64,000 nucleotides of DNA. It comes from a virus. Made by a program: the position numbers and the translations under genes. The notes beneath the pieces are model-generated. The model had not been told where the DNA came from. It searched no databases and saw only the letters and a program-made list of their open reading frames with translations. Each line of letters begins with the position of its first letter. Position 1 is the first letter of the stretch. Below, piece after piece: positions 4,364-32,626 of this stretch. The DNA lies in IMG/VR virus record IMGVR_UViG_3300021960_006131, positions 1 through 64,000 of that record; one strand, written 5' to 3'.

Positions 4364-4576
4364 ATGTCACAAGGAAAAAGTGGGTTCGAACTACGAACCG
4401 ATATCTTAGGTATGGCAATGGGACTGTTAGAAAATAACAGAGATCAAGCCACACATTCATTTTACAGCATTCCAGAAGAAGATAGAAAAGGTGAAAAAGC
4501 ACCTGTTATTGCTATCTCTACTGATGAGGTAATAAGCACAGCACAAGAACTTTACGCATTCGTAAACGAAAAGTAA
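4364..4576 (+). CDS. small hypothetical phage protein
   Basis: 70-aa ORF, AAGGAG RBS, GTAAATA box upstream, terminator downstream. Confidence 0.8.
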   Translation: MSQGKSGFELRTDILGMAMGLLENNRDQATHSFYSIPEEDRKGEKAPVIAISTDEVISTAQELYAFVNEK

Positions 4577-4593
4577 GTATTTGGTTCTGTATA

Positions 4594-4619
4594 AAAAAAG
4601 GGTCCTAGGACCCTTTTTT
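4594..4619. terminator. bidirectional intrinsic terminator
   Basis: Perfect inverted repeat AAAAAAGGGTCCTAGGACCCTTTTTT between convergent ORFs 4364-4576(+) and 4631-4756(-). Confidence 0.9.
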
Positions 4620-4630
4620 AGTGGTTGTGT

Positions 4631-4756
4631 CTACGATGCAATAATATTTTGCACGTTTTCCATACGACCTGATTTCATCAGTGTATCTAATTTTTTCCAA
4701 GTGACCAATGCGAAACGATGAGTTGCACTGGCTACTATTCCTAAGGACTTCGCCAT
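4631..4756 (-). CDS. 41-aa peptide, not in ORF track
   Basis: MAKSLGIVASATHRFALVTWKKLDTLMKSGRMENVQNIIAS*; CAGGAG RBS, ATAAATA box at 4875-4869, ends at the bidirectional terminator. Confidence 0.65.
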   Translation of the reverse strand: MAKSLGIVASATHRFALVTWKKLDTLMKSGRMENVQNIIAS

Positions 4757-4825
4757 GTTATTCTCCTGTGATATTCTAACAAAACTGCTAGTAGGTTTGC
4801 AGTAACTTCATCCCTAATGGGCTCT

Positions 4826-4875
4826 GTTACAGACTATCAAACTCTATGTTACAATCGTGTTACAGAAGTATTTAT
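4826..4875 (-). promoter_or_regulatory. ATAAATA box followed by 11-bp-phased (C/T)TGTAAC direct repeats (Pho-box-like)
   Basis: GTTACA(G/A) on + at 4826, 4848, 4859 (spacings 22 and 11); TATTTAT at 4869-4875. Confidence 0.45.
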
Positions 4876-4913
4876 CATTTGTGCGAAAATCATACAATTT
4901 TTACGGAAATAGG

Positions 4914-4942
4914 TTGACCATACCCACAAAATTTAGTATAAT
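4914..4942 (+). promoter_or_regulatory. sigma70-type early promoter
   Basis: TTGACC-17 bp-TATAAT; GTAGGAG RBS at 4964. Confidence 0.9.
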
Positions 4943-4975
4943 ATATGCATAATTTGTAAAAAGGTAGGAGTTTTT

Positions 4976-5446
4976 ATGTATAAAGTATTTCAAATCAAGT
5001 TAAGTGACGAAGTAACAGACTTCGTTAATTCTAATGACAGAGGACACACAGGTGCCGCTGAAAAATATCCTGAGTACAATGCACACATGGAAGTGATGCA
5101 TGGTGCCGAAGGTTTCAAGGGAGAAATGTTTAATCATTATACCCAAGTTTGCGAAGTTGCTCAATTTGAAGACAGCAACTTAGAAGAAGTATTCAAAATT
5201 TTGAATGGTTACTACTATGATGACGACACTGGTTTAGATCAGTGGTTCGACACATTCGTAAGTGGTTTCAAAATGAAGACGTTCACTAGGAAAGATGGTG
5301 AGGTTGTTACATATCGTGACATGCACTCTCTTTCAGTAGGCGACATTGTGTATGATTCAGTAGAAGATTCATATAACATTGTTGATAAATGGGGTTTCAA
5401 GGACATCACTAGTGATGTTCTTTCAGGTGTTCAACAAACAGCATAA
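4976..5446 (+). CDS. YodL-like domain protein
   Basis: 'LEEVFKILN' and 'MHSLSVGDIV' match the YodL-type HSLSVxDIV motif. Confidence 0.65.
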   Translation: MYKVFQIKLSDEVTDFVNSNDRGHTGAAEKYPEYNAHMEVMHGAEGFKGEMFNHYTQVCEVAQFEDSNLEEVFKILNGYYYDDDTGLDQWFDTFVSGFKMKTFTRKDGEVVTYRDMHSLSVGDIVYDSVEDSYNIVDKWGFKDITSDVLSGVQQTA

Positions 5447-5661
5447 TGGAATACGTTGAGTCTTTGGATTATAAACTTCGCTATTTAGATAAGTTCAGTG
5501 CTAGGGCAGGTAAACATAATTGGATATCTGACCCTAAGATCTATTCTGATAGCGATGTATTCCTTAGGTTAGAACAGTTGCAAGAACTAGGCTATTTGGT
5601 TGAATTAACATTTAATTTGAAAAATAACAAAGAAAAGGTTGACCTTGGTCAGGTTTTTTAG
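5446..5661 (+). CDS. hypothetical protein
   Basis: 71-aa ORF coupled by TAATG; 3' end overlaps the next promoter. Confidence 0.55.
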   Translation: MEYVESLDYKLRYLDKFSARAGKHNWISDPKIYSDSDVFLRLEQLQELGYLVELTFNLKNNKEKVDLGQVF

Positions 5662-5667
5662 TATAAT
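5639..5667 (+). promoter_or_regulatory. sigma70-type early promoter
   Basis: TTGACC-17 bp-TATAAT; GTAGGAGTAA RBS at 5689. Confidence 0.9.
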
Positions 5668-5702
5668 AGTTGTATATTAAATAATTTCGTAGGAGTAATT
5701 AT

Positions 5703-6782
5703 ATGTCAGATAACATTCGAACAGTAAAACTAAGCAGGGCAAAGAGCCACATCAAACGTGCTTTTAATAAAAAACGTCCTGTATTTATTTGGGGTCCTCC
5801 AGGAGTTGGTAAGTCCGACGTACTGGCTCAGATCGCTGAAGAAGGTAATAACCTTTTAATTGATTTGAGAATGGCTTTGCTAGACCCAACAGATATCAAA
5901 GGGTATCCTTACAGAGATGAGGACACTAACAAAATGATGTGGGCGGCACCTGCCGAACTACCATCAGAAGAACTTGCTAGCCAGTATGAAACTGTCTTCT
6001 TGTTCTTAGACGAACTTAACTCTGCACCTCCAAGTGTGCAGGCAACTGCTTACCAGTTGATTCTTAACCGTAGAGTTGGACAATATCAATTACCAGATAA
6101 CGTGGTAATTGCGGCGGCTGGTAACAGAGACACTGATAAAGGTGTTACTTACAGGATGCCAAGTCCTTTAGCAAACAGATTCCTTCACTTAGAAGTTGAA
6201 GTTAATCATGACGATTGGCAGTCTTGGGCAGTTGATAATGATATCAACCCAGATGTTGTTGGTTACTTGGCTTTTGCTAAACAAGACCTTTTTGACTTTG
6301 ATCCAAAGAGTTCAAGTAGGAGTTTTGCTACTCCAAGGTCTTGGGCATTCGTTAGCCAAATGCTGGAAGACAGTGACATGACTCATGAAGAGGAAATGGA
6401 TATTGTTACAGGTTTGGTTGGCGAAGGCATGGCAATTAAGTTTATGAATCACAAGAAGAATGCTTCTAAACTTCCTAAGCCTTCTGAAATCCTTTCAGGT
6501 AAGGTCAAGGAGTTGAAGAAACTTGAGATATCTTCAAAGTATGCTCTTACAGTTGGTATGAGTTACGAACTTAAGAATATCCAAGATAGTGGTGATGACA
6601 AAGAACTCACATCGTCGTTTAATAACTTCATTAACTTCTTAATGGATAACTTTGAACCAGAAATGTGTGTACTTGGTTGTAAAATTGCATTGAGCGAGTA
6701 TGATATTGATGTAGACTTTGCAGATGTTGAACGTATCGATGAGTGGGTTGAAAGATACGGTAAGTATATGAACATCGACTAG
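5703..6782 (+). CDS. MoxR-like AAA+ ATPase
   Basis: Walker A GPPGVGKS, Walker B LFLDELN, sensor 'AAGNR', arginine finger 'PLANRF', 'TPRSW'. Confidence 0.9.
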   Translation: MSDNIRTVKLSRAKSHIKRAFNKKRPVFIWGPPGVGKSDVLAQIAEEGNNLLIDLRMALLDPTDIKGYPYRDEDTNKMMWAAPAELPSEELASQYETVFLFLDELNSAPPSVQATAYQLILNRRVGQYQLPDNVVIAAAGNRDTDKGVTYRMPSPLANRFLHLEVEVNHDDWQSWAVDNDINPDVVGYLAFAKQDLFDFDPKSSSRSFATPRSWAFVSQMLEDSDMTHEEEMDIVTGLVGEGMAIKFMNHKKNASKLPKPSEILSGKVKELKKLEISSKYALTVGMSYELKNIQDSGDDKELTSSFNNFINFLMDNFEPEMCVLGCKIALSEYDIDVDFADVERIDEWVERYGKYMNID

Positions 6783-6835
6783 TTAGTTCCTGTGTCGCCT
6801 GTTACTCCTACAACCTACATAGCGGCACAGACTAA
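6783..6835 (+). ncRNA. putative structured 3'-UTR/small RNA hairpin with anti-SD loop (UACUCCUACAACCU)
   Basis: Stems TTAGT/ACTAA, CTGTGTCGC/GCGGCACAG, TGT/ACA; loop is the reverse complement of the GTAGGAG RBS of all six sigma70-driven genes. Confidence 0.5.
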
Positions 6836-6836
6836 A

Positions 6837-6868
6837 GGGGGGATCTTTACGGTCCCCCCATCCTTTTA
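6837..6868 (+). terminator. intrinsic terminator
   Basis: GGGGGGATC-tttac-GGTCCCCCC hairpin followed by ATCCTTTTA. Confidence 0.7.
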
Positions 6869-6881
6869 TCCAAATAATAGG

Positions 6882-6910
6882 TTGACCTCTCTGGTAATTT
6901 TTAGTATAAT
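6882..6910 (+). promoter_or_regulatory. sigma70-type early promoter
   Basis: TTGACC-17 bp-TATAAT; TTGTAGGAG RBS at 6922. Confidence 0.9.
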
Positions 6911-6938
6911 ATAAGTATAGTTTGTAGGAGAACACACA

Positions 6939-8165
6939 ATGAACAATTTAGCACAAAATACAGATCAAGCAGTAAAGGACAGATTAATAACTGCTAGAGT
7001 GCAATTACTTCTTAAGAATGGTTTCTTTGGTAACTTAGCAACTAGGTTACAATTACAAGAAGCATCCGATTGGTGCCCGACTGCCGCAACAGATGGCAGA
7101 TACTTTTTTTATAATACAGAATTTATCCAGTCATTAGATGATGACGAACTTATCTTTTTAATGGGTCATGAGGTTCTCCATAATGTTTATGATCACATGG
7201 ATAGACGTGGTAATAGAGATCCTCGTCTTTGGAACATAGCAAATGACTATGTTGTGAACATGGACTTAGTTGAAAATAATATTGGTAAGAGAATTACCAA
7301 AGTTAATATCTGTTTTGACTACAAATATCAAAACTGGATTTCAGATGAGATATACGACGACTTGTACGAGAACGCAGAAAAGATTACTGAAGAAACACTT
7401 GACATGCATTTAGACTTCAGTAATGAAGATGGTGACGGTCAAGGTGCTGAAGGTAAAGGTGAAGGTGGTGATCAACAAGACGGGCCACCAAAGTATTCTA
7501 AAGAAGAAAGACAACAGATCAATGACGAAGTAAAAGAAGCCGTAATGAATGCGGCCAAAGGTGCTGGTAACAAAGATCTTCCTAATGGCGTTAGAAAGAT
7601 GATTAAGGATCTTACTAATCCTGAGTTAGATTGGAGAGAGTTACTTGCTACCAATATTCAAAGTGTTGTAAAGAATGACTTTACATTTATGAGACCTGCT
7701 AGAAAAGGTATTGCTGAACACGTTTACCTTCCTGGTATGGACTACGACACAGACTTAGATGTGTTCTGCTTTATTGATAGTTCCGGTTCTATGTCAGATG
7801 AAATGCTTAGAGACCTTCTAAGCGAAGTAAAAGGTTGCATGGAGCAATACACTAACTTCAAACTTAGACTTTGTTTCTTTGACACATCTACATACACTAT
7901 TCATGAGTTTGATTCTACTAACGTAGATGACATTTATGATATTGAAATTGAAGGCGGTGGCGGTACTGAGTTTGATTGTATGTTTGATAGACTCAAAGAG
8001 GAAGACATTGTACCACAGAAGTTAATTGTATTCACAGATGGTTACCCATGGGGTAGTTGGGGCGATGAAACATACTGTGATACATTGTTTATAATTCATG
8101 GTTCTGGCTACGGTGGCAGAACTCCAGAAGCACCATACGGTGTATCGGTAAAATATAAAGCATGA
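6939..8165 (+). CDS. metallopeptidase-like + VWA domain protein (DUF2201-type), partner of the AAA+ ATPase
   Basis: 'TAATDG', HExxH 'HEVLH', 'WNIANDYVVN'; MIDAS 'IDSSGS', 'GGGGTEF', 'FTDGY'. Confidence 0.88.
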   Translation: MNNLAQNTDQAVKDRLITARVQLLLKNGFFGNLATRLQLQEASDWCPTAATDGRYFFYNTEFIQSLDDDELIFLMGHEVLHNVYDHMDRRGNRDPRLWNIANDYVVNMDLVENNIGKRITKVNICFDYKYQNWISDEIYDDLYENAEKITEETLDMHLDFSNEDGDGQGAEGKGEGGDQQDGPPKYSKEERQQINDEVKEAVMNAAKGAGNKDLPNGVRKMIKDLTNPELDWRELLATNIQSVVKNDFTFMRPARKGIAEHVYLPGMDYDTDLDVFCFIDSSGSMSDEMLRDLLSEVKGCMEQYTNFKLRLCFFDTSTYTIHEFDSTNVDDIYDIEIEGGGGTEFDCMFDRLKEEDIVPQKLIVFTDGYPWGSWGDETYCDTLFIIHGSGYGGRTPEAPYGVSVKYKA

Positions 8166-8497
8166 AGATTCACGTAAGTAAAAAATTAGGTGTAGGTGAA
8201 CTAGAAGGTTTGAAAGGTACTCCAACCTATGAGAACCTAATGAAAAACAAAATTTGCATTTATTCTAATACAACAGAAGACGATACTATATTTGATTTAG
8301 TATCGCACTTCGATGAGTATGGACAAGGTTTACTCTATATGTCTACACTTGGTAGCGACAATATATGGAGAATTTACTTTGAGAACACCGGTGACATGCT
8401 TACATTTATAGAGTTAGCCAGAGCACCCAGCAAAAAACCAGATAATATAGGCACAATTGAGTCAGTAGTAGTAAATACTACACATGACGCAGAATAA
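8162..8497 (+). CDS. hypothetical protein
   Basis: 111-aa ORF overlapping both neighbours. Confidence 0.7.
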   Translation: MKIHVSKKLGVGELEGLKGTPTYENLMKNKICIYSNTTEDDTIFDLVSHFDEYGQGLLYMSTLGSDNIWRIYFENTGDMLTFIELARAPSKKPDNIGTIESVVVNTTHDAE

Positions 8498-9557
8498 CAT
8501 TCTATGGTCCTGTAATGAATGGGATCCCCTCAAAGAAGTAATAATAGGAACGGCCGTAGACGCCAATATTCCAAACGGCGACCTTTCGCACCACGCCACC
8601 AACTATGCCAATCTAAGTGCTGAACAGTATGCACAAATGCCTAAGGGTAGATACCCAGAGCATGTATATACCGAAGCAGAAGAGGATTTAGACGCATTGT
8701 GTAACGTTCTAAGCAACGATTTCGGTGTAAAGGTACATAGGCCTAACCTAAATGCTGTAGACTTTACAGCGAACGTTAGCAACGGCTTATGGGACACAGA
8801 CCAATACGAAGCATACTGTCCACGTGATAGTGTTACTGTGATAGGTGACAAAATCATAGAAGGTGCTATGAGTTTGAGAGCAAGGTATCACGAAACCTTT
8901 CTATTCAGAGACCTATTCCAAGAGAAGATGATGGGTGGTGCTAATTGGTTACAAATGCCTAAGCCACGTTTAGATGACAGTTTATTTAAAATACAGCCAG
9001 GCAGAGACCCAAGTGTAAATAACAACGAACCTATACTAGACCCTGCTAACCTCATACGCATGGGTTACGATATACTATACTTGATATCCAATACTGGTAA
9101 TGAAATGGGTGCTAAGTGGTTACAGAACGCACTAGGCCCCGACTTTAAGGTACACATGATGCATGACTTATACAGTTGGGCACATGTCGACAGTACAATT
9201 ATGCCACTAAGACCTGGATTGGTAATACTGAATGCCAGTAGGGTAGATGCAGACAGGGTGCCTGCTATATACAAAGGTTGGGATATTATTTGGTATGACG
9301 ATGATATGTGTGTTGGACAACCATGTTTAGAAGATTATGCTCCAGCAAGTAGTTGGATTGGCATGAACGTACTCAGCATAGATCCACAGCATGTATTAGT
9401 ACCTGATGATGAAATACACTTAATGAAAGCCATGGAAAAACATGGCGTAACACCTGTGCCTGTCCAAATGCGTCATATGAGAACACTAGCAGGTGGTCCA
9501 CATTGTGTGAGCCAAGACCTAGTTAGAGACGGAAAATTAGAAAGTTACTGGAAATAG
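8484..9557 (+). CDS. amidinotransferase (pentein fold; glycine/inosamine-phosphate amidinotransferase family)
   Basis: 'NEWDPLKEVIIG', 'CPRD', 'D.AN', 'HVDST', catalytic C-terminal 'GGPHC'. Confidence 0.9.
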   Translation: MTQNNILWSCNEWDPLKEVIIGTAVDANIPNGDLSHHATNYANLSAEQYAQMPKGRYPEHVYTEAEEDLDALCNVLSNDFGVKVHRPNLNAVDFTANVSNGLWDTDQYEAYCPRDSVTVIGDKIIEGAMSLRARYHETFLFRDLFQEKMMGGANWLQMPKPRLDDSLFKIQPGRDPSVNNNEPILDPANLIRMGYDILYLISNTGNEMGAKWLQNALGPDFKVHMMHDLYSWAHVDSTIMPLRPGLVILNASRVDADRVPAIYKGWDIIWYDDDMCVGQPCLEDYAPASSWIGMNVLSIDPQHVLVPDDEIHLMKAMEKHGVTPVPVQMRHMRTLAGGPHCVSQDLVRDGKLESYWK

Positions 9558-9560
9558 CAG

Positions 9561-9589
9561 TTGACTTTACCCCTTATTTTTAGTATAAT
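9561..9589 (+). promoter_or_regulatory. sigma70-type early promoter
   Basis: TTGACT-17 bp-TATAAT; GTAGGAGT RBS at 9611. Confidence 0.88.
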
Positions 9590-9619
9590 AATAGTGTATT
9601 AAGTAGTTGAGTAGGAGTT

Positions 9620-10390
9620 ATGGAACTTAATTTAGAAGGTTACAAAGGTTTACTAGTAGTGGGCGATGTCCATTCAGTTTTCTCTGACTTTGCTACTTCA
9701 TATTCATATGCTCGTAAACACAATTTATATTACCTGCAACTAGGTGATATATTGGATTACGGTCCTAAGCCTTTAGAAACCATGTTGTTAGCAAAAGAAA
9801 TACTTGATGCTGGACACGGTACTATTATACAAGGCAACCACGATAATAAAATGTTTCGTTGGGCAAAAGGCAATGATGTTAAATTAGGTAAGGCACAAAG
9901 AGATACACTTGCTAGAGTGGATTTTGGTATTGACTTATTTAAAGATCTTGTACTTGAAATTGCTCCACAACAACCTTTCTTTGTTACTTATAAGAACTTT
10001 TTCTTTACACATGGCGGTGTACACCCTGAGTTTTGGGAAACCAAAAAGATCACCAAGAAGTCTATGGAAAGTGTATTCTTATACGGACAGGTTGATAATA
10101 CTAAAACAGTTATGTGGCAAGGTCAGCCATATGCTCACAGAGTATATGATTGGGCCGAAGCAATACCTAAGGGTAAAATAGTATTTGTTGGACACGACAG
10201 ATCACCATTAAAAAGTGAGCCTGACTTCGAAGACAATTTAAAAATGCCGTTAGTATATTATACTAAGAAAGAAGAAAGGGTAATATTCCTAGATACAGGT
10301 AGTGGTAAAGGTGGTACACTTAGTGGTGCCAAAATGACCTTTAATAACTACAATCAACTAGCAATTGAGACCTTTTTATCGTTCACATAA
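9620..10390 (+). CDS. calcineurin-like metallophosphoesterase
   Basis: GDVH, GDILDYGP, GNHD, THGG, GH, DTG motifs. Confidence 0.9.
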   Translation: MELNLEGYKGLLVVGDVHSVFSDFATSYSYARKHNLYYLQLGDILDYGPKPLETMLLAKEILDAGHGTIIQGNHDNKMFRWAKGNDVKLGKAQRDTLARVDFGIDLFKDLVLEIAPQQPFFVTYKNFFFTHGGVHPEFWETKKITKKSMESVFLYGQVDNTKTVMWQGQPYAHRVYDWAEAIPKGKIVFVGHDRSPLKSEPDFEDNLKMPLVYYTKKEERVIFLDTGSGKGGTLSGAKMTFNNYNQLAIETFLSFT

Positions 10391-10402
10391 AAACATCAGT
10401 TA

Positions 10403-10409
10403 ATAAATA
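10403..10409 (+). promoter_or_regulatory. late-type promoter ATAAATA
   Basis: Intergenic; followed by GGAGG RBS and ATG 10439. Confidence 0.55.
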
Positions 10410-10438
10410 ATACTTGTAAATTACCATTGGAGGAAAAA

Positions 10439-10735
10439 ATGGCAGATACAGAAAACACAGAGATTGTAAACGAAGAAGTTGAACAATCAGTAGAAGGAGA
10501 TGCACCTGAGCAACAACAGGCCTCATTAAGCCTTGAGGAACTCAATGCATTATTACAAATCGTTGATTTAGCAGTAAGCAGAGGAGCATTTAGAGGTGCA
10601 GAAGCATCACAAGTAGGTGCTGTTTTTGATAGATTAAATAATTTTCTTAATATAGTTGCACAAAATCAACAAGCAGAAGCAGAAGTAGAGGCTGATGCAC
10701 CAGCAGAGCCAGAGGCTCCTGCAGAAGGAGAATAA
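10439..10735 (+). CDS. acidic hypothetical phage protein
   Basis: GGAGG RBS before ATG 10439; helical core 'IVDLAVSRGAFRGAE'. Confidence 0.8.
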   Translation: MADTENTEIVNEEVEQSVEGDAPEQQQASLSLEELNALLQIVDLAVSRGAFRGAEASQVGAVFDRLNNFLNIVAQNQQAEAEVEADAPAEPEAPAEGE

Positions 10736-10736
10736 T

Positions 10737-11369
10737 ATGCCAAGTATAACAAAACACGTTGCTAAATGGAACGAAAGAAAGTGTCTAGTGCTATTTAGAG
10801 AAGTTCCGGGTGAACCAGAAAATGCTCTATTAATTATGTCAGGCGAACTTAGTGCTACTCAACATGATGAATTAATTTCAGTTGTAGATAGCGATGAAGC
10901 ACAGACAAATAGCGATTTAGCACAGGTCCTAAACGGCAGAAACTTTAGCGATGGTAGAGTAATGTTACAGGCCTTACACGCAGATGGTATGATTACCAAA
11001 GCACCTGTAAGCGAAGTTATAATGTTACCTACTCCAAAAGACGAAGTACCATTAACTGCTCTTAATGATTCAATTGCAACAATCGAAGCAGGTAAAGAAG
11101 CAGATAAACCTAATCTTGCTGATACATCTGAGATTGATGCTATTAATCAAGTTGAAAGACCTAGACAATTATCAGAAAGAGAAGCAGAAGAACAATTAGG
11201 TATTGCAAAGGGTTTATTGGAACAGGCTAATATGATTGAGCAGGATGTTGAAAGAGTTCAACAGCAAATGATTGCAGATGCTAATAGTAAAAGAGAAGAA
11301 GCATACGCAAGAGCACCTGAATTAAGGCCAAAGCCAAAACCAGGCAGACCAAAGAAATCAGCGATATAG
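10737..11369 (+). CDS. hypothetical protein with C-terminal coiled coil and basic 'KPGRPKK' tail
   Basis: AAGGAG RBS before ATG 10737 (track start 10695 unlikely); AT-hook-like GRP tail. Confidence 0.8.
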   Translation: MPSITKHVAKWNERKCLVLFREVPGEPENALLIMSGELSATQHDELISVVDSDEAQTNSDLAQVLNGRNFSDGRVMLQALHADGMITKAPVSEVIMLPTPKDEVPLTALNDSIATIEAGKEADKPNLADTSEIDAINQVERPRQLSEREAEEQLGIAKGLLEQANMIEQDVERVQQQMIADANSKREEAYARAPELRPKPKPGRPKKSAI

Positions 11370-11378
11370 TTGGGAGAT

Positions 11379-11696
11379 ATGAGTAAAAGGAAAATAATCC
11401 TTACTCACAATTCCCAACTTAGCAACTTCGACAAATTGTTGAAAGATATTTTTACGACAGAAATACCTAGTAACTTTGTTGACAAAGTAGTTGTAACTGA
11501 TAAGAATGGTAATACAGGTGAGAAACTAGGTTCCAGTATAGAAGGAGCAATTCCACTAAATCCTAATGTGGACACACCCCTGTCTAAATTATGGAATAAC
11601 GAAACTGAATCTGTAGAGATTTTTCTAAATATTAAAAAAGTAGAAAAATATGTTACTGATGAAACAAATAAATTATTAGATAAATTTGAAGACTGA
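11379..11696 (+). CDS. hypothetical protein
   Basis: GGGAG RBS before ATG 11379. Confidence 0.75.
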   Translation: MSKRKIILTHNSQLSNFDKLLKDIFTTEIPSNFVDKVVVTDKNGNTGEKLGSSIEGAIPLNPNVDTPLSKLWNNETESVEIFLNIKKVEKYVTDETNKLLDKFED

Positions 11697-12598
11697 TGTT
11701 TTACTTACCTGAACAAGATTTATTATTCATTCATATACCCAGAACTGGAGGTAAATCATATAAAGTTTTTTTAGAAAACTATGGCACCAATACTGATATA
11801 GAAATATTTGATACACATAGTCCTGTACAAACAGCATGTTATTTTTTAGATAATCCTGATGCAAATACTAAATTAAGTATTATTCGAAACCCGTATGCTA
11901 GAGAAGTTAGTTTATGGCGTTGGGGTAGAGCAGGTCCTTTAGCGGCGGCTGACATGACTTTTGAATATTGGTGCAGGTGGAGATTTGAAGGTCGTCCTAA
12001 AGATGCCTCAAATGTACTCACATACCTTGATCCTGTAACTGTAACCTCTTTATGGGGTATGCACAAGACACCGCAAATTCTTTACTTAGTAGATGAAGAT
12101 GCAAAATTACGAGTTGATTACATTGGTTGCTACGAGCGTCTAGAAGAAATTTTTGATTATACTAGAAAAAGATTTCACGAGGACTATGGTTATGTGAAAC
12201 ATGTTGCAATGCAGAATGAAACTCCGTGGGCAAGAAAACTAAATCAAAGTGAAATGGATTGGCGACTAATATATGAGCAATGTGAAAATACGCAAGAAAT
12301 ATTAGACTTGGTATATAATTTTTATGATTGGGACTTTGAAACATTTGGTTATAACAGAGACTGGTTGGTTGAAGATGATTCACCAAGTCGTAATGTAGGC
12401 GAAATGCCAAAGCCTAGTTCAGATGCTTATGGAGATATGATGTCAAATTGGCCCTTAAAACAATTTTATGGTAATAGAAAAATACTACTTGCCGATGCAT
12501 TAAGTTATAGATTTATGCCGGAAGGCAAAAATAGAGGTGTGTTCTTACAAAACACTATGGGTCTTAAGATAGGTGATGTTACACTAAGAGAGGACTAG
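11696..12598 (+). CDS. sulfotransferase family 2-like protein
   Basis: 5'-PSB 'FIHIPRTGGKS', 3'-PB 'IIRNPYAREVSLW', 'VDYIGCYERL', 'YDWDFETFGY'. Confidence 0.8.
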   Translation: MFYLPEQDLLFIHIPRTGGKSYKVFLENYGTNTDIEIFDTHSPVQTACYFLDNPDANTKLSIIRNPYAREVSLWRWGRAGPLAAADMTFEYWCRWRFEGRPKDASNVLTYLDPVTVTSLWGMHKTPQILYLVDEDAKLRVDYIGCYERLEEIFDYTRKRFHEDYGYVKHVAMQNETPWARKLNQSEMDWRLIYEQCENTQEILDLVYNFYDWDFETFGYNRDWLVEDDSPSRNVGEMPKPSSDAYGDMMSNWPLKQFYGNRKILLADALSYRFMPEGKNRGVFLQNTMGLKIGDVTLRED

Positions 12599-12840
12599 TG
12601 CCACTAGATCAGAGTGCCCATAACCCAACCCAACCAAGATATTCAAACTGGTACAAAGTATTTGCATGGAAGCCTCGCACATTAACAAATGGCAAAAAAG
12701 TTTGGCTTAAATTCATATATAAAAGAACTATAATCATTGACTGGATGCCACCTACATATCCTGCCAAAAAGTATTTTAATACACAATACACCGATATAAA
12801 TGGTGTAATAAAGGACAAATTAATCCAGAAAAACCGGTAA
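12598..12840 (+). CDS. hypothetical protein
   Basis: GTG start overlapping upstream stop, GAGGA RBS; 'FAWKP...GKKVWLK.IYKR'. Confidence 0.65.
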   Translation: MPLDQSAHNPTQPRYSNWYKVFAWKPRTLTNGKKVWLKFIYKRTIIIDWMPPTYPAKKYFNTQYTDINGVIKDKLIQKNR

Positions 12841-12846
12841 AAAAGG

Positions 12847-12875
12847 TTGACCTTGACCCAGTATTTTAGTATAAT
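12847..12875 (+). promoter_or_regulatory. sigma70-type early promoter
   Basis: TTGACC-17 bp-TATAAT; flanks nearly identical to the 5639 promoter; GTAGGAG at 12895. Confidence 0.9.
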
Positions 12876-12910
12876 AGTTGTATAAATTAAAAAGGTAGGA
12901 GAGTTTAATT

Positions 12911-13426
12911 ATGCAAACATTAGTAATACAAACCCAGTACAGAGAAAACTATGCCGCACATGACAGTGGTTATGAGCATGGTGTAAGCGAAGCACACTGG
13001 AAGTACAAAGGTGGTTGCACTTATTTCGTAACTGATCTTACTCCTGGGCAAATCAACAAGATTGCTCAAAAAGGTATTCCAACTTTAACCAAACTTATTG
13101 AAAGCAAAAACGAGGCTTTTGAAGAATATATCCTGGATTGGGAGATCCGTGAACTTGGTAAAAATGGCGACGGCAAGGGTCCAATTTGTGAGCCTTGGGA
13201 AACACCCGTAGAGTTCTTTTATAAGGACGGGTGGAAATGTCGTACCCATCACACTCCCAGTCCTGAATATACTCATTTTGCTCCAAGCATTATTGGTAAG
13301 GCTGAGCAATGGACACCTGGTTTTGGTAACACTAGGACTGACTATGCATGTCAGTTTAAAACTGCTAATGGCTGGTTTGATCAGAAAGATCCGCAACTGT
13401 TAAAACAAGTTCAGGAGGTGGCGTAA
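12911..13426 (+). CDS. hypothetical phage protein
   Basis: 171-aa ORF; first gene after a promoter and RBS. Confidence 0.85.
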   Translation: MQTLVIQTQYRENYAAHDSGYEHGVSEAHWKYKGGCTYFVTDLTPGQINKIAQKGIPTLTKLIESKNEAFEEYILDWEIRELGKNGDGKGPICEPWETPVEFFYKDGWKCRTHHTPSPEYTHFAPSIIGKAEQWTPGFGNTRTDYACQFKTANGWFDQKDPQLLKQVQEVA

Positions 13427-14697
13427 TGAATCCTTGGAATATAATTCAACAGTTAGAGAGCAATAACAGTTCTCTATTCAAGCAAGACGTTATTAAAGCA
13501 AACATTGATAATCAAGAGTTTATCACCGGTGCTACTATGTGTCTTGATCCTCTTGTAACTTTTGGTGTTAAGCAAGTACCAACAACAGACGCAGATGGTC
13601 CTGGTGTAAGTTGGGATTTGTTTCAATCTTTAGCAGACAAATTAGTTGCTAGAGAAGTTACTGGACATGCGGCCAGAGATGCTATTCAAACATTAGCAGA
13701 CCACAGCACCGTTGAGCAATGGAACGATTGGTACAGACGTATCTTAATCAAAGACCTACGTTGTGGTACTGGTGCTAAACTAATCAACAAAGTACAAAAG
13801 GATACTATTCCACTATTTGGTTGTATGTTAGCACACGATGGTGCTAAACACCCAAAGAAAATTAAAGGAGAATGTTTTGTCGAATATAAGTACGATGGTG
13901 TTAGGGTTATTGCTATTGTCCAGAATGGTAGTGCTACCCTATATAGCAGAAACGGGAAAATACTTTCCAACTTCCCACATATCGAAGAGGCCCTCAGTAA
14001 GTCTAAGTTTGAAGGCTTAGTATTTGATGGCGAAGTAATGAGCGAAGATTTCCAAAGTTTAATGAAGCAAGTTCACAGAAAAGAAGGCGCTCAAACTGAG
14101 GACAGTTACCTTGCAGTATTTGACATGCTCACACTAGAAGAGTTCAATGCAGGCGGTACTGAAATGACTGCATTTGAAAGACGTGAACGTTTAATTAGTA
14201 AACAGGCTGATTTTAATAATAGAATTACACTTGTTCAAGCAATTAATTTAGACTTAGACAGTGAGCAAGGCCAAGCAAGTTTCAAAGCAATGAACAAACA
14301 AGCCTTAGAAGAAGGTTATGAAGGCTTAATGATTAAGCCTATACAAGAAGGTTACAAGTGTAAACGTAGCCATGCTTGGTTAAAGATCAAACCTTTTATT
14401 GAAGTTACACTTAAGGTTGTAGCACTTGAAGAAGGTACTGGTAAGAATGAAGGCTTACTTGGTGCTCTTGTTGTAGAAGGTGATGACGACGGTAAGTTCT
14501 TTAGACTTAACGTTGGTAGTGGACTAACTGATGAAAACAGAGAACAAATTTGGGCAAACCAAGATGCTGTTATAGGTCAGTTGGTTGAGATTAGAGCCGA
14601 TGCGGCAACGCAAAGTCAAGACGCAGAAGATACTTGGAGCCTTAGGTTCCCAAGGTTTAAGACATTTAGAGGTTTTGAACTAGGAGAAAAACTATAG
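13426..14697 (+). CDS. ATP-dependent DNA ligase
   Basis: Motif I 'EYKYDGVR', III 'FDGEV', IIIa 'VFD', IV 'EGLMIK', V 'WLKIKP', OB-fold 'VGSGL', VI 'LRFPRF'. Confidence 0.95.
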   Translation: MNPWNIIQQLESNNSSLFKQDVIKANIDNQEFITGATMCLDPLVTFGVKQVPTTDADGPGVSWDLFQSLADKLVAREVTGHAARDAIQTLADHSTVEQWNDWYRRILIKDLRCGTGAKLINKVQKDTIPLFGCMLAHDGAKHPKKIKGECFVEYKYDGVRVIAIVQNGSATLYSRNGKILSNFPHIEEALSKSKFEGLVFDGEVMSEDFQSLMKQVHRKEGAQTEDSYLAVFDMLTLEEFNAGGTEMTAFERRERLISKQADFNNRITLVQAINLDLDSEQGQASFKAMNKQALEEGYEGLMIKPIQEGYKCKRSHAWLKIKPFIEVTLKVVALEEGTGKNEGLLGALVVEGDDDGKFFRLNVGSGLTDENREQIWANQDAVIGQLVEIRADAATQSQDAEDTWSLRFPRFKTFRGFELGEKL

Positions 14698-30292: not shown

Positions 30293-30981
30293 TATTAAAT
30301 AGTTGGAAAGAAGTGACAGAGTATATTGACGGTGGCTTTTGGCAACCTACTCCTAGTTACTTTGAACACATTGTTCAGCATGGTAATTACTATCCACAAC
30401 ATGCTTTCAGCAAAGGACAATTGGCAAGTAAGAGTTGGTTACTTGGTAAACTGCATTTAAAAACAAATTTTTCGCCTGATGCTGACCCTATACCAAATGA
30501 ACTTACTGTTGCTATTTTAGGCAGTTGGATCGGTGCTCTAGTAGAACCATTGCATAAAACATTTAATATATTACGTTTATATGGAATTGACACAGATGCT
30601 GAAGCAATAGAAAAGTCAGAAAAACTTAATAGACAATTTGTACAAGATGAATGGAAATACAAAGGGGTAGTACATGATGTTGATTTACTAGATTGCGGCG
30701 AAATGGAATTTCAAACTGGTGGTGAATTAATACAATGCAAACCTAATTGGATTATTAATACCAGTTGCGAACATATGAGTACACTATGGTATGATAGTGT
30801 AGACAGTGATCAACTTATAATTATGCAAACAAATAATTCAGAAGAGTTTGAAGGACACGTTAATACTTGCAAAGATGTAAAAGAAATGCAAGAAAAATAT
30901 CCATTGTCTAAGACACTTTATGTGGGAGAGTTAGTTACTCCAGCATATACTCGTTTTATGCAAATTGGTTATAAACCTTAA
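30280..30981 (+). CDS. class I SAM-dependent methyltransferase-like protein
   Basis: 'GQLASKSWL', motif I 'AILGSWIG', 'GIDTD', 'INTSCEHM'; GAGG RBS before ATG 30280. Confidence 0.7.
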   Translation: MESIVLNSWKEVTEYIDGGFWQPTPSYFEHIVQHGNYYPQHAFSKGQLASKSWLLGKLHLKTNFSPDADPIPNELTVAILGSWIGALVEPLHKTFNILRLYGIDTDAEAIEKSEKLNRQFVQDEWKYKGVVHDVDLLDCGEMEFQTGGELIQCKPNWIINTSCEHMSTLWYDSVDSDQLIIMQTNNSEEFEGHVNTCKDVKEMQEKYPLSKTLYVGELVTPAYTRFMQIGYKP

Positions 30982-31148
30982 AACAAAGTCCACAAATAAT
31001 AAAAAAATGCATATCCTATAATTATTGGTATCCAGTACGCAATATTAAATAATACAGTAAATGTACCACTAATTAATGCAATTACACCATCTAAACCACC
31101 AAAGTATAAAAAGGTTAAAGCAAGAATAACTATTAAGAATGTAAACAT
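30978..31148 (-). CDS. 56-aa very hydrophobic membrane protein, not in ORF track
   Basis: MFTFLIVILALTFLYFGGLDGVIALISGTFTVLFNIAYWIPIIIGYAFFYYLWTLF*; TTGTAGGAG RBS and its own consensus promoter. Confidence 0.75.
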   Translation of the reverse strand: MFTFLIVILALTFLYFGGLDGVIALISGTFTVLFNIAYWIPIIIGYAFFYYLWTLF

Positions 31149-31177
31149 AAATCTCCTACAATTTTTATTACTCTTAT

Positions 31178-31206
31178 ATTATAGTAAATTTTGAGATGTT
31201 TGTCAA
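31178..31206 (-). promoter_or_regulatory. sigma70-type early promoter (perfect consensus)
   Basis: TTGACA(31206-31201)-17 bp-TATAAT(31183-31178), with the same GG prefix as most of the + strand promoters. Confidence 0.9.
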
Positions 31207-31207
31207 C

Positions 31208-32626
31208 CTATCTTTGATTATGTTTTGGGTCTGGTCTATTCCACCAACTCCATAATTCAGGATGTTGGCAATAGATATCATTTATTGTTAAACGGCCATC
31301 TTGCCCGTCTTTTCTGATTGCTTGAATAATTTGTTGATACTTACGACCATTAAAGAATTGATCGTTTGCTGTATCAGGCCATTGCTCTTGGAATGTTGGC
31401 GATTCAAGTAGTCCTTCTAGTTCGCGAATTAATGTTTTTTGCTTGTCAGTTACTCTGGGCCTACAGTAATCTAATAAGTCATTTACTATTTCGTCAAGTA
31501 TGTGCCTAGGCCATGCCATTGGTGATAATACTATATCTGCATGGAAGGCAAACATTCGTTTTGTTTCTATTTTAACATCTAGTTCTAGTGCATAATCTAA
31601 AAAGTTTTTGATATCAAATAAACCTGGACCTGTAATTGTTAAGTCCATTATCATTTTATCATTGCCACCTGGTAGTGCTACACCCTCTCTAAAGTTTCTA
31701 TCCCATTCTTCCCAATTAAGTCCTGTTCTAATAAACTCACCTATTGGTCCTGTGCCGTCAATACTAGCACACATAGTCCAGTCTTTTGCTTGTGGTAACC
31801 AATCATATAAGTAATAGTCTTTGTATCTTACTCTACTTAGGTTACTATTATATCTTAAATGAACTTTGTGTAAATTATTATCTGCTTGTAGTCTATCCAT
31901 TGACTTCCAGTGTATATCATACATAAGTGGTTCACCTCCTACCCAGTATAATTCTTCAACTGTGCCCGATTTGATATATTCCCAAAACTCTTCTTCAACT
32001 ACTTCCTTTTGGAACTTTTCGATAATCTTCTTATTCTCGGGGACCATGAATGGTTGTTGTTCAGGAGTCCAAAGGTCGTGTTTCCTTTTTTCCGTTTCCC
32101 AACTGCTACTGAGTTGTTCGCCACACATACGGCATTTAAAATTGCATAAATTACTATACCTATAATCAAAAGAGATAGGTTCCATTGTAGTATATCCATT
32201 TTCGTCTGTCTCCTCAAAACATTGATCTATTTTGTTGTTAAATAAAAATCCTGTAAACCATTGACGATATGTACTGTTACTTAATAAACTGTCATTGCAC
32301 ACATCACATTGTGGTATCTTTTCGCCTGCCATAAGTTTTTTTCTTATGTCCATCATATAGGGTGAGTTCCAGTGTTCTTTTAAACTCACAGGCTTATAGT
32401 CAGCAATAGTACCTGATTCTTTTACTTCTCCATACTTTTCGTCATTACTTGCATCTATGTACTGTTTTTGAAATTGATGTTCTTCCCTACTTGCACAACA
32501 CATACGCCTTTCACTTTGTGGTGAAATATATGTGTGAGTCCAAGGAGCAGTACAAAATACTTTGTTAGGTGAATCTGGACTTACAGAACCATGTTCCCAA
32601 ATTGGTTTTATTTTACTCACTATCAA
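31208..32626 (-). CDS. radical SAM enzyme with N-terminal SPASM/Twitch-like domain
   Basis: CNFKCRMC, GGEP, 'ASIDG'; N-terminal CTAPWTH / MCC / CDVC. Confidence 0.9.
   Translation of the reverse strand: MIVSKIKPIWEHGSVSPDSPNKVFCTAPWTHTYISPQSERRMCCASREEHQFQKQYIDASNDEKYGEVKESGTIADYKPVSLKEHWNSPYMMDIRKKLMAGEKIPQCDVCNDSLLSNSTYRQWFTGFLFNNKIDQCFEETDENGYTTMEPISFDYRYSNLCNFKCRMCGEQLSSSWETEKRKHDLWTPEQQPFMVPENKKIIEKFQKEVVEEEFWEYIKSGTVEELYWVGGEPLMYDIHWKSMDRLQADNNLHKVHLRYNSNLSRVRYKDYYLYDWLPQAKDWTMCASIDGTGPIGEFIRTGLNWEEWDRNFREGVALPGGNDKMIMDLTITGPGLFDIKNFLDYALELDVKIETKRMFAFHADIVLSPMAWPRHILDEIVNDLLDYCRPRVTDKQKTLIRELEGLLESPTFQEQWPDTANDQFFNGRKYQQIIQAIRKDGQDGRLTINDIYCQHPELWSWWNRPDPKHNQR

What the first reader, a model, noticed from the sequence alone, without database searches (positions are those of the whole stretch)
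6783..6870. Candidate phage anti-Shine-Dalgarno small RNA matching the RBS of every sigma70-driven gene
Seen: right after the AAA+ stop codon is a long hairpin (TTAGT/ACTAA, CTGTGTCGC/GCGGCACAG, TGT/ACA) with loop UACUCCUACAACCU, followed by a terminator. All six genes that directly follow a sigma70 promoter use the extended RBS GTAGGAG (4964, 5689, 6924, 9611, 12895, and 31159-31153 on -). The other RBSs I checked read CAGGAG, AAGGAG, (A/T)TAGGAG or GGAGG. Segment 6802-6813 (TTACTCCTACAA) pairs 10 nt with the AAA+ gene's own leader (GTAGGAGTAA), 9 nt with 6922 and 31161 (TTGTAGGAG), 8 nt with 4964 and 9611, and 7 nt with 12895. On the - strand no start codon follows this GTAGGAG, so it is not simply an RBS. 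Known precedent: C-rich loops that pair with SD sequences (S. aureus RNAIII, RsaE) and 3'-UTR-derived sRNAs. Inference: an early transcript accumulates an RNA that shuts off translation of the early regulon, including itself, with the extra GU acting as an address tag. I know of no description of such a circuit in this type of phage.
Basis: partly seen in the sequence, partly recalled or inferred. Interest (0 to 1): 0.88.

Follow-up and report, generated by a model that had tools for sequence, protein, structure and literature searches.

The report
Anti-ribosome-site loop in phage mRNA tail
The tail of a phage ATPase messenger RNA carries a hairpin whose loop can pair with the ribosome-binding site of that same gene, a self-pairing design that recurs with compensating changes in many related uncultured phages and probably limits how much the message is translated.

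Summary
6783-6835 is a stable stem-loop followed by an intrinsic terminator (6837-6859 plus a U run). Its 23-nt loop holds TTACTCCTACAA. The six consensus-promoter genes in the window all carry GTAGGAG, and their initiation regions rank 1, 2, 4, 5, 7 and 9 of 93 for predicted pairing with the loop.

The comparative evidence shifts the interpretation. In 182 non-redundant relatives of the AAA+ gene, the gene's own leader and its own 3' end share a Watson-Crick match of 8 nt or more in 43%, against 6% of cross-clade pairings. The pairing covaries, in some lineages down to the choice of stop codon. The neighbouring VWA/peptidase gene shows nothing comparable (0 of 37).

A hairpin with the same loop core but unrelated stems recurs in clades at 52-61% protein identity. 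In one sub-family 9 of 9 stem pairs change on both sides.

My best reading is a 3'-UTR anti-Shine-Dalgarno element that pairs first with its own mRNA, much as in icaR. In the hairpin lineages it probably also pairs with the partner gene's leader.

A trans-acting sRNA that silences every early gene is neither shown nor excluded. In relatives only some early leaders match. There is no RNA-end evidence, no assay, and no covariation within the window's own clade.

The parts
5639..5667 (+). Sigma70-type promoter of the AAA+ gene (TTGACC, 17-nt spacer, TATAAT)
   Evidence: 11 of 12 consensus positions. It is one of five such sites in 4500-13500.
5689..5698 (+). Leader segment GTAGGAGTAA (SD plus spacer), positions -14 to -5 from the ATG. 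Proposed pairing partner of the loop.
   Evidence: It is a 10-nt Watson-Crick complement of 6802-6811, with RNAduplex energy -16.6 kcal/mol.
5703..6782 (+). AAA+ (MoxR-like) ATPase ORF, 359 aa
   Evidence: AAA_5, AAA; phrog_1297 ATPase, E 1e-101.
6783..6835 (+). 3'-UTR stem-loop. Stems 6783-6787/6831-6835 and 6790-6798/6822-6830; loop 6799-6821.
   Evidence: -16.4 kcal/mol alone, z -3.7. In 8 distinct sequences of the window clade, 72 of 72 cells are paired, and the only variation is one-sided switches that keep a pair (U-A/U-G, C-G/U-G).
6802..6813 (+). Anti-SD segment TTACTCCTACAA in the loop
   Evidence: The core is invariant in the window clade and shared with distant clades.
6837..6869 (+). 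Intrinsic terminator (stem-loop 6837-6859, then a T-rich tail)
6882..6910 (+). Promoter of the next gene (DUF2201 metallopeptidase / VWA-like)
6922..6930 (+). TTGTAGGAG in the leader of the VWA/peptidase gene (ORF 6939-8165). This is the best predicted trans or read-through target.
   Evidence: (rank 1 of 93, -18.6 kcal/mol). Domains (PF13203, PF09967).
4964..4970 (+). GTAGGAG leader of the promoter-led gene 4976-5446
   Evidence: 8-nt match, rank 5.
9611..9617 (+). GTAGGAG leader of the promoter-led gene 9620-10390 (metallophosphoesterase)
   Evidence: 8-nt match, rank 4.
12895..12901 (+). GTAGGAG leader of the promoter-led gene 12911-13426
   Evidence: 7-nt match, rank 9.
31153..31159 (-). 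GTAGGAG leader of the promoter-led 56-aa gene 30978-31148
   Evidence: 9-nt match, rank 7.

Best explanation
Positions 6783-6869 are the 3' untranslated region of a monocistronic early mRNA for a phage AAA+ (MoxR-like) ATPase. It is a stem-loop that displays a conserved single-stranded anti-Shine-Dalgarno sequence (UUACUCCUAC), followed by an intrinsic terminator.

The loop base-pairs with the translation initiation region of the same gene (GUAGGAGUAA, 4 nt before the AUG). The pairing could be within one molecule or between copies. This occludes the ribosome-binding site once the 3' end has been made, and so caps translation of the ATPase.

In this lineage the anti-SD sits in an exposed loop. 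It can therefore probably also reach the nearly identical leader of the adjacent partner gene (VWA/metallopeptidase).

What is shown: the anatomy, the complementarity, its recurrence and its covariation. What is inferred: that the pairing forms in vivo, that it represses rather than activates, and whether it acts in cis or in trans.
For: 1. Anatomy: promoter, a leader of about 30 nt, the ORF, the hairpin and the terminator.

2. The unit is conserved. Of 182 unique relatives, 144 have a TTGAC...TAnn[AT]T promoter within 130 nt upstream, with a median of 37 nt from the -10 box to the ATG. A terminator-like hairpin lies within 130 nt downstream in 132.

3. Own-leader/own-3' complementarity, first set. 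This was 75 unique pairs in 23 clades. Clades with an own match of 8 nt or more averaged 7.6, against 1.0 in deranged pairings (maximum 5 in 2000). RNAduplex energy was -12.9 against -10.9 kcal/mol.

4. Own-leader/own-3' complementarity, enlarged set. From 283 loci, 268 had both ends, giving 182 unique pairs. Of these, 79 (43%) have an own match of 8 nt or more, against 6% of cross-clade pairs. With 34 clades the count is 12.6 against 2.1 (maximum 8 in 2000).

5. Fine-scale compensation. Within one cluster linked at 85% protein identity or more (36 unique pairs), the own mean is 9.42 nt against 7.53 nt for pairings within the cluster (0 of 5000 permutations reach it). Example pairs:
- GCGAGGTCTTA / TAAGACCTCGC
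- ACGAGGTCTTA / TAAGACCTCGT
- TGGAGGTCTTA / TAAGACCTCCA
- AGGGGTCTTA / TAAGACCCCT
- CTGGAGTTCA / TGAACTCCAG

6. Stop codon. The first 7 nt counted from the stop codon are complementary to the gene's own leader in 34 of 182 pairs, against 0.5% cross-clade.

7. Position. The matched leader positions peak at -13 to -3, which is the SD and spacer.

8. Specificity. The adjacent VWA gene shows no own-leader/own-3' match: 0 of 37 at 8 nt or more, mean 5.19 against 5.24 cross-clade.

9. Hairpin class. The same loop core sits in stems of unrelated sequence. All 9 hairpins tested fold with the motif unpaired (z -2.3 to -4.8). In a 7-sequence sub-family, 9 of 9 stem pairs change on both sides. There 90.5% of cells are paired against 68% in shuffles (0 of 500), and the slid controls score 0.30 or less against 0.725.

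10. Joint switch. L421 changes leader and loop together.

11. Full-length folds. In 15 of 16 loci, pre-selected for having a match, the minimum-energy fold of the ~1.17-kb mRNA keeps the 5'-3' helix.

12. Precedent. [quoted passage not shown]
Against: - There is no experimental evidence and no RNA-end evidence. Only contigs from RNA libraries were available, and DNA carry-over is possible. One contig bridges the terminator.
- Within the window's own clade, leader and loop barely vary, so own and cross pairings score the same (9.31 against 9.31). The hairpin there shows only one-sided changes. The case for this locus rests on more distant relatives.
- A test for strand specificity of the long-range duplex was inconclusive. 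Sense was better in 35 loci and antisense in 43 of 79. G-U pairs therefore do not prove that the sense RNA is the pairing species.
- Several clades of the family lack any match. These are clusters 1, 2 and 7, with 27, 16 and 6 unique pairs, and 4 of 4 cultured phages sampled.
- A loop pairing with a distant leader is a pseudoknot-type contact, which the folding tools cannot score. The nested fold of the window mRNA pairs the SD weakly with the terminator tail instead.
- The direction of the effect (repression, stabilisation or re-initiation) is untested.
Confidence: 0.6

Rival explanations
1. The hairpin plus terminator accumulates as a separate 3'-UTR-derived small RNA of about 85 nt. It acts in trans on all GUAGGAG-tagged early leaders and shuts off the whole early regulon, with the extra GU serving as an address tag.
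For: - The six promoter-led initiation regions rank 1, 2, 4, 5, 7 and 9 of 93 for duplex energy with the loop.
- GTAGGAG is tied to promoter-led genes: 6 of 7 against 1 of 17.
- A seed in a loop followed by a terminator is the usual sRNA layout.
- In hairpin clades the partner gene's leader also matches by 8-9 nt: clades 0 and 1, most of clade 13, and L084.
- The icaR authors likewise could not exclude trans targets.
Against: - In relatives' contigs only some promoter-proximal leaders match the loop. In G004, 3 of 11 hits carry GGAGTAA (7-11 nt), with a fourth 7-nt match elsewhere in the loop. In G005, 2 of 8 match at 8 nt or more, and in G001 1 of 7.
- A seventh consensus promoter in this contig (86196) uses AAAGGAG.
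- Covariation follows the gene's own leader.
- The weakest targets pair by only 7 nt (-11.8 kcal/mol).
- The shared GTAGGAG could come from duplicated promoter-leader cassettes.
- No processed RNA species has been shown.
Confidence: 0.2
2. GTAGGAG is a recognition tag for a phage protein, in the manner of the T4 RegB nuclease or the RegA repressor acting on early initiation regions. The hairpin would then be only a 3' stabiliser next to the terminator, and its complementarity to the tag would be incidental.
For: T4 RegB cuts GGAG in early initiation regions and inactivates early mRNAs, including its own (passages of PMC3014915). The tag is specific to early leaders here.
Against: - It does not explain why the loop is conserved while the stems change.
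- It does not explain why leader and 3' end covary in many lineages, or why L421 switches both together.
- There is no REGB_T4 match in the 90.5-kb fragment. This means little, because the contig is about 25% complete and the control genomes also gave no match.
Confidence: 0.08
3. The complementarity is a DNA-level inverted repeat that brackets the gene, for example a protein-binding site or a recombination or cassette boundary. It would not be an RNA-RNA contact.
For: - In many relatives the ORF is bracketed exactly by the repeat.
- The sense-versus-antisense energy test did not favour the sense RNA.
Against: - Compensatory change in both arms among close relatives is what base pairing predicts. 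It is not what a protein site predicts.
- The leader arm always covers the SD and spacer.
- In the hairpin class the partner lies in an RNA loop ahead of a terminator.
- The window-clade stem varies only by U-A/U-G/C-G switches, which keep a pair on the plus-strand RNA only.
- The neighbouring gene lacks any such repeat.
Confidence: 0.05
4. Chance. An ordinary terminator-proximal hairpin happens to contain the complement of a common SD variant.
For: - A 7-mer is expected several times in 90 kb. CTCCTAC also occurs on the transcribed strand inside two coding regions (78690 and 85852).
Against: Permutation tests, loop conservation across unrelated stems, and the negative control gene.
Confidence: 0.03

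Closest known systems
icaR mRNA 5'-UTR/3'-UTR interaction, Staphylococcus aureus (PMC3868564; abstract and discussion passages read)
   Same: An anti-SD motif in the 3' UTR of an mRNA pairs with the SD of the same mRNA. Whether it acts in cis or in trans is left open there as well. Other trans targets are not excluded.
   Different: - icaR has a 3' UTR longer than 100 nt and a C-rich UCCCCUG motif. Here the UTR is about 85 nt and the motif is UUACUCCUAC, held in a 23-nt hairpin loop.
- This case is phage-encoded and sits in an ATPase gene.
- It is supported by covariation over many lineages but by no experiment.
- In sister lineages the partner includes the stop codon itself.
Bacillus subtilis hbs mRNA 5'/3'-UTR interaction (PMC5737220; abstract read)
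   Same: A long-range (14-bp) pairing between the two UTRs of a short monocistronic mRNA ties mRNA fate to translation initiation.
   Different: In hbs the pairing modulates RNase Y cleavage in the leader and does not cover the SD. Here the paired leader positions peak on the SD and spacer.
hok mRNA fold-back inhibition, hok/sok of plasmid R1 (recalled; mentioned as an analogy in the icaR discussion)
   Same: The 3' end of the full-length mRNA pairs with its 5' region and keeps the message translationally inert.
   Different: hok is a toxin mRNA that is activated by 3' trimming. No such processing is known here, and the sequences are unrelated. I did not check this comparison against a primary paper.
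C-rich-loop sRNAs that pair with SD sequences (RNAIII, RsaE; mentioned in the icaR discussion)
   Same: A pyrimidine-rich anti-SD seed is displayed in a hairpin loop and followed by a terminator.
   Different: Those are free-standing or dedicated regulatory RNAs with proven trans targets. Here the element is the tail of a coding mRNA, and its best-supported target is that same mRNA.
T4 RegB inactivation of early mRNAs at GGAG (PMC3014915; passages read)
   Same: Early genes share an SD variant through which they can be switched off together, including the regulator's own mRNA.
   Different: RegB is a protein nuclease helped by ribosomal protein S1. Here the candidate effector is an RNA. No RegB homologue was found in the fragment, though that result is uninformative.

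Membership tests
5'-UTR/3'-UTR anti-SD interaction of one mRNA (icaR type) | An anti-SD sequence lies in the 3' UTR of the same transcript as the SD it matches | tested here: met
   Promoter 5639-5667, leader, ORF, loop 6802-6811 and terminator 6837-6859 lie on one predicted transcript. The complement is 10 nt long.
5'-UTR/3'-UTR anti-SD interaction of one mRNA (icaR type) | The two regions really pair (shown biochemically for icaR) | tested here: inconclusive
   The support is comparative only. Own pairs exceed cross pairs. There is compensation within a cluster and a joint switch in L421. The window's own clade shows no covariation, and the strand test was inconclusive.
5'-UTR/3'-UTR anti-SD interaction of one mRNA (icaR type) | The pairing blocks formation of the initiation complex and lowers protein output | not testable with these tools
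   This needs toeprinting or reporters. It is inferred from the paired positions (-13 to -3).
5'-UTR/3'-UTR anti-SD interaction of one mRNA (icaR type) | The duplex is a substrate for RNase III | not testable with these tools
A 10-bp duplex is short for RNase III (my own knowledge).
3'-UTR-derived trans-acting sRNA | A discrete stable RNA species that covers the 3' UTR | tested here: inconclusive
   14 RNA-library runs hold part of 5600-7000. Four were laid, as contigs only. Contigs end at 6797 and 6828 in two runs and bridge 6592-6980 in a third. Contigs cannot show RNA ends.
3'-UTR-derived trans-acting sRNA | A conserved single-stranded seed and a Rho-independent terminator | tested here: met
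   The loop core is invariant. All 9 hairpins tested fold with the motif unpaired. Terminator.
3'-UTR-derived trans-acting sRNA | Complementarity to targets on other transcripts is conserved across relatives | tested here: inconclusive
   The partner-gene leader matches by 8-9 nt in hairpin clades. Only some other early leaders match in relatives' contigs.
Any Rfam family | A match to a curated covariance model | tested here: not met
   0 matches at gathering score in the 64-kb window. 0 matches at E of 1 or less in 5600-7000.

The most novel reading that the evidence does not exclude
The AAA+ mRNA family may carry a sensor of ribosome traffic. The region at or just after the stop codon pairs with the SD and spacer, and closes the message into a loop. 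Only a terminating ribosome can reopen that loop. Each mRNA would then either keep being re-initiated or become locked for good. In the window's lineage the anti-SD has moved into an exposed hairpin loop. From there it would have gained trans reach over the GUAGGAG-tagged early leaders, turning a self-limiting message into a regulon-wide early shut-off RNA.
Probability: 0.15. Interest if true: 0.9.

Novelty: new variant of a known kind. Interest (0 to 1): 0.72.

Why it matters
Base pairing between the two untranslated ends of a bacterial mRNA is known from very few cases. The icaR authors call theirs a 'singular example', and hbs is another. My four literature searches found no phage case. They cover open-access papers and bioRxiv only.

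Here the same principle appears in a widespread phage gene family, in at least two architectures:
- an anti-SD placed at the stop codon;
- an anti-SD displayed in a hairpin loop.

The natural compensatory variation is large enough to stand in for a mutagenesis series.

This gives a directly testable model for how a phage doses or times an early ATPase. It also raises the question of whether such elements can evolve into trans-acting regulators. Finally, it offers a simple genome-wide search rule: look for a leader that is complementary to the gene's own stop region.

Tried and rejected
- Close or annotated relatives in GenBank phages. Megablast found none. Blastn found only short ORF matches in 4 records. 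tblastn found 857 records, all below 60% identity. The four I opened (Pseudomonas phage 30-3, KpCHEMY26, CR8, FFH2) have only 4-5-nt leader/3' matches. Cultured phages therefore gave no experimental handle.

- Rfam. Nothing was found.

- Scanning viral contigs for the loop motif. Of 124 matches, only 11 followed an AAA+ gene. The rest were coding repeats (Val-Thr-Pro-Thr-Pro) and chance hits. The motif alone is not a usable search key.

- One alignment of all hairpin clades. MAFFT could not place non-homologous stems in common columns (A2 and A3). Formal pair counts were therefore made only on two sub-alignments. These were A4, which includes one out-of-register row (L413) counted as broken, and A5. 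No covariance model was built.

- Strand-specificity test of the long-range duplex. It was inconclusive.

- Nested folding and cofolding of the window mRNA. These tools cannot represent a contact between a hairpin loop and a distant leader. The weak pairing of the SD with the terminator tail in that fold is not taken as a finding.

- RNA libraries. Only contigs were served. Coverage gaps and contig ends are not evidence of transcript ends. In the listing, 5 rows hold half or more of the sampled words; one of these is an RNA run (X1, 0.57) and the other four are of unknown kind. DNA carry-over cannot be excluded.

- RegB homologue. There was no match, but the contig is a fragment and the control genomes gave no match either, so the result is uninformative.

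- Earlier scan notes. None concerned this element.

- Supplementary files of papers were not opened. They could hold icaR or hbs structure details, but no claim here depends on them.

each stopped at about 600 stretches and kept 80, so I examined 283 loci out of a larger and unknown number.

- Rows dropped. 15 of 283 loci lacked one end. Duplicate leader/3' pairs were collapsed, 268 to 182.
Full report
THE OBSERVATION

The window is the first 64 kb of a 90.5-kb IMG/VR viral contig with 35% G+C. CheckV rates the contig about 25% complete.

Right after the stop codon of a 359-aa AAA+ (MoxR-like) ATPase (5703-6782) lies a stem-loop at 6783-6835. An intrinsic terminator follows at 6837-6859, with a T run behind it. 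Together they fold to -36.1 kcal/mol, z -5.8, and 0 of 200 shuffles fold as well. The terminator is the strongest terminator-like site in 4500-13500.

The 23-nt loop (6799-6821) contains TTACTCCTACAA at 6802-6813.

Each directly follows an 11-of-12 consensus promoter.

In a crude gene call of the whole contig (98 ORFs), 24 genes have an AGGAG-type SD and 7 of them read GTAGGAG. That is 6 of the 7 promoter-led genes against 1 of the 17 others (p about 3.5e-4, worked by hand). There are two exceptions. A seventh consensus promoter at 86196 uses AAAGGAG. A gene without its own promoter carries GTAGGAGG at 31936 on the minus strand.

Against the loop, the six initiation regions rank 1, 2, 4, 5, 7 and 9 of 93 by RNAduplex energy. 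The two best are the next gene (VWA/DUF2201 peptidase, -18.6 kcal/mol) and the AAA+ gene itself (-16.6 kcal/mol, 10 contiguous pairs).

No Rfam family matches.

WHAT THE RELATIVES SHOW

I collected relatives of the AAA+ gene from viral contigs and metagenomes. In all I examined 283 loci. Of these, 268 had both gene ends, which gave 182 non-redundant pairs of leader (-30 to +3) and 3' region (stop codon to +60).

The gene is usually its own transcription unit. A sigma70-like promoter lies within 130 nt upstream in 144 of 182, with a median of 37 nt from the -10 box to the ATG. A terminator-like hairpin lies within 130 nt downstream in 132 of 182.

The central result is that a gene's own leader and own 3' region are complementary far more often than leaders and 3' regions taken from different clades.
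- A Watson-Crick match of 8 nt or more occurs in 79 of 182 own pairs (43%), against 6% of cross-clade pairs.
- Taking one random representative per clade, 7.1 of 23 clades (75% linkage) or 12.6 of 34 clades (85% linkage) have such a match. Deranged pairings give 1.3 and 2.1, with maxima of 6 and 8 in 2000 trials.
- The first, smaller set gave the same answer.
- The matched leader positions peak at -13 to -3, which is the SD and its spacer.

TWO ARCHITECTURES

(a) Stop-adjacent. In 26 of the 79 matching pairs the 3' partner starts at the first base of the stop codon, so an inverted repeat brackets the ORF.

Inside one cluster linked at 85% protein identity or more (36 unique pairs), both arms change together. 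Examples:
- GCGAGGTCTTA / TAAGACCTCGC
- ACGAGGTCTTA / TAAGACCTCGT
- TGGAGGTCTTA / TAAGACCTCCA
- AGGGGTCTTA / TAAGACCCCT
- CTGGAGTTCA / TGAACTCCAG
- AGGTTAGGATTA / TAATCCTAACCT

In that cluster, own pairs average 9.42 nt against 7.53 nt for pairings within the cluster, and 0 of 5000 permutations reach the own value. The leader even follows the choice of stop codon (TTA with TAA, TCA with TGA, CTA with TAG). The first 7 nt from the stop codon are complementary to the gene's own leader in 34 of 182 pairs, against 0.5% cross-clade.

In 15 of 16 such loci, pre-selected for having a match, the minimum-energy fold of the whole ~1.17-kb mRNA keeps this 5'-3' helix.

(b) Hairpin-loop. This is the window's type. 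The anti-SD sits 22-43 nt after the stop, in the large loop of a hairpin just ahead of the terminator.

The loop core (GTTACTCC, an optional C, then TAC and a nearby CCTA) recurs in clades at 52-61% protein identity. The stems there have entirely different sequences. All 9 hairpins tested fold with the motif unpaired (z -2.3 to -4.8).

In a 7-sequence sub-family, 22 loop columns are invariant while 9 of 9 stem pairs change on both sides. There 90.5% of cells are paired against 68% in shuffles (0 of 500). The covariation score is 0.725, against 0.30 or less for slid controls. One out-of-register row was kept and counted as broken.

One relative, L421, has switched both partners together: leader AGGAGTGAT with loop ATCACTCCT.

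LIMITS FOR THE WINDOW'S OWN CLADE

In the window's own clade (8 distinct hairpins), 72 of 72 cells pair. Only three pairs vary, each on one side: U-A/U-G and C-G/U-G. These changes keep a pair only in plus-strand RNA. They are weak evidence, and the shuffles there carry no information.

Leader and loop do not vary enough in this clade to test covariation (own 9.31 against cross 9.31).

CONTROLS AND NEGATIVES

- The neighbouring VWA/peptidase gene shows no complementarity between its own leader and own 3' region. None of 37 pairs reach 8 nt, and the means are 5.19 (own) against 5.24 (cross-clade). The effect is therefore specific to the AAA+ gene.
- Several clades of the family lack it: clusters 1, 2 and 7, with 27, 16 and 6 unique pairs.
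- All 4 cultured phages that I opened lack it.
- A sense-versus-antisense energy comparison of the long-range duplex did not favour the sense strand (35 against 43 of 79).
- Nested folding cannot represent a contact between a hairpin loop and a distant leader.

OWN mRNA OR THE WHOLE EARLY REGULON?

In stop-adjacent lineages the 3' element matches its own leader much better than the next gene's leader:

| Locus | Own leader (nt) | Next gene's leader (nt) |
|---|---|---|
| L033 | 10 | 6 |
| L105 | 10 | 4 |
| L094 | 9 | 6 |
| L124 | 8 | 5 |
| L129 | 8 | 5 |

In the hairpin lineages the partner gene's leader also matches by 8-9 nt. An exposed loop may therefore have gained a second target. That target could sit on a separate transcript, or on read-through transcripts in which the loop lies about 110 nt upstream of the partner's SD.

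Beyond these two genes the picture is mixed. In relatives' contigs only some promoter-proximal leaders are complementary to the loop:
- In G004, 3 of 11 promoter hits carry GGAGTAA (7-11 nt), and a fourth has a 7-nt match to another part of the loop.
- In G005, 2 of 8 match at 8 nt or more.
- In G001, 1 of 7 matches.

In the window's phage all six in-window promoter-led genes carry the tag. Duplicated promoter-leader cassettes could explain that equally well.

RNA EVIDENCE

Fourteen RNA-library runs hold part of the locus. I laid four of them, from four studies, and only as assembled contigs. Contigs cover the ATPase gene. They end at 6797 and 6828 in two runs and bridge the terminator in a third. 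This shows neither transcript ends nor a small RNA, and DNA carry-over is possible.

HOW IT MOST LIKELY WORKS

Shown: a monocistronic message whose 3' tail carries a conserved single-stranded complement of its own ribosome-binding site. Relatives reach the same pairing by different sequences and keep it through compensatory change.

Inferred: once the 3' end is transcribed, the anti-SD pairs with the SD and spacer, within one molecule or between copies, and blocks 30S binding. Output of the ATPase would then be limited to a burst. This is what was demonstrated for icaR.

In the stop-adjacent forms a terminating ribosome would sit on the 3' arm. The lock could then respond to ribosome traffic. 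That step is speculative.

Confidence:
- the pairing is functional, about 0.8;
- it represses translation, about 0.55;
- the full statement, 0.6;

COMPARISON WITH WHAT IS KNOWN

The closest known system is the icaR 5'/3'-UTR anti-SD interaction. Related cases are:
- the hbs 5'/3'-UTR pairing;
- hok fold-back inhibition (recalled, and cited as an analogy);
- C-rich-loop sRNAs such as RNAIII and RsaE;
- on the protein side, T4 RegB acting on GGAG in early leaders.

The element meets the sequence-level definition of the icaR type. The biochemical features cannot be tested here. It matches no Rfam family.

Four full-text searches found no description of such an element in a phage. They cover open-access papers and bioRxiv only.

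I rate it a new variant of a known kind. The principle is known. What I did not find described are the phage setting, the recurrence across many lineages, the helix that includes the stop codon, and the hairpin-loop form.

Noticed in passing
G000 contig 50105-71230 (-), partly in the window (50105-64000): A single open reading frame of 7041 aa, followed upstream by one of 1407 aa (71230-75453, minus strand), in my crude ORF call.
   Followed up: no
L064, L090/L398, L405, L428, L421 leaders (relatives): The first transcribed bases of the AAA+ leader read (G)TAGGT(T). They are complementary to the ACCTAC in the 3' part of the same loop, which gives a two-part leader/loop match. In L064 it is 9 + 9 nt at -21.5 kcal/mol. 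The window clade has GTATAT there, so only the SD part pairs.
   Followed up: partly
Clusters 0 and 5 (e.g. L293, L320, L404): There is a second long-range match in stop-adjacent lineages. The 5' part of the leader (CTGAGAA or CTTAGAC) is complementary to the loop of the terminator hairpin (TTCTCAG or GTCTAAG). It is not present in all members.
   Followed up: partly
L084, L184, L192, L243, L395 (relatives): A small extra hairpin is inserted inside the large loop, between a TATCCTAC segment and the GTTACTCCTACAACCTA segment.
   Followed up: no
window 4914, 5639, 6882, 9561, 12847 (+) and 31206 (-): The five plus-strand early promoters are nearly identical beyond the hexamers: TTGAC(C/T), a T-rich spacer ending TTTTAGTATAAT, and an initial transcribed GTATA-like segment. 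Three of them (4914, 5639, 6882) are shown with GG before the -35 box. The minus-strand promoter at 31206 differs (TTGACA with a different spacer). The pattern looks like repeated promoter-leader cassettes.
   Followed up: partly
window 30978-31148 (-): The sixth GTAGGAG gene is a 56-aa ORF behind an exact TTGACA-N17-TATAAT promoter, inside an otherwise late-looking enzyme block. An earlier scan note describes it as a membrane peptide.
   Followed up: no
GenBank MN163281.1 (Klebsiella phage KpCHEMY26), locus L449: The record's own annotation says that the homologous ATPase is split by an intron carrying an HNH gene in some N4-like phages. Another record (Escherichia phage Pollock) shows an HNH gene inside the match.
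   Followed up: no
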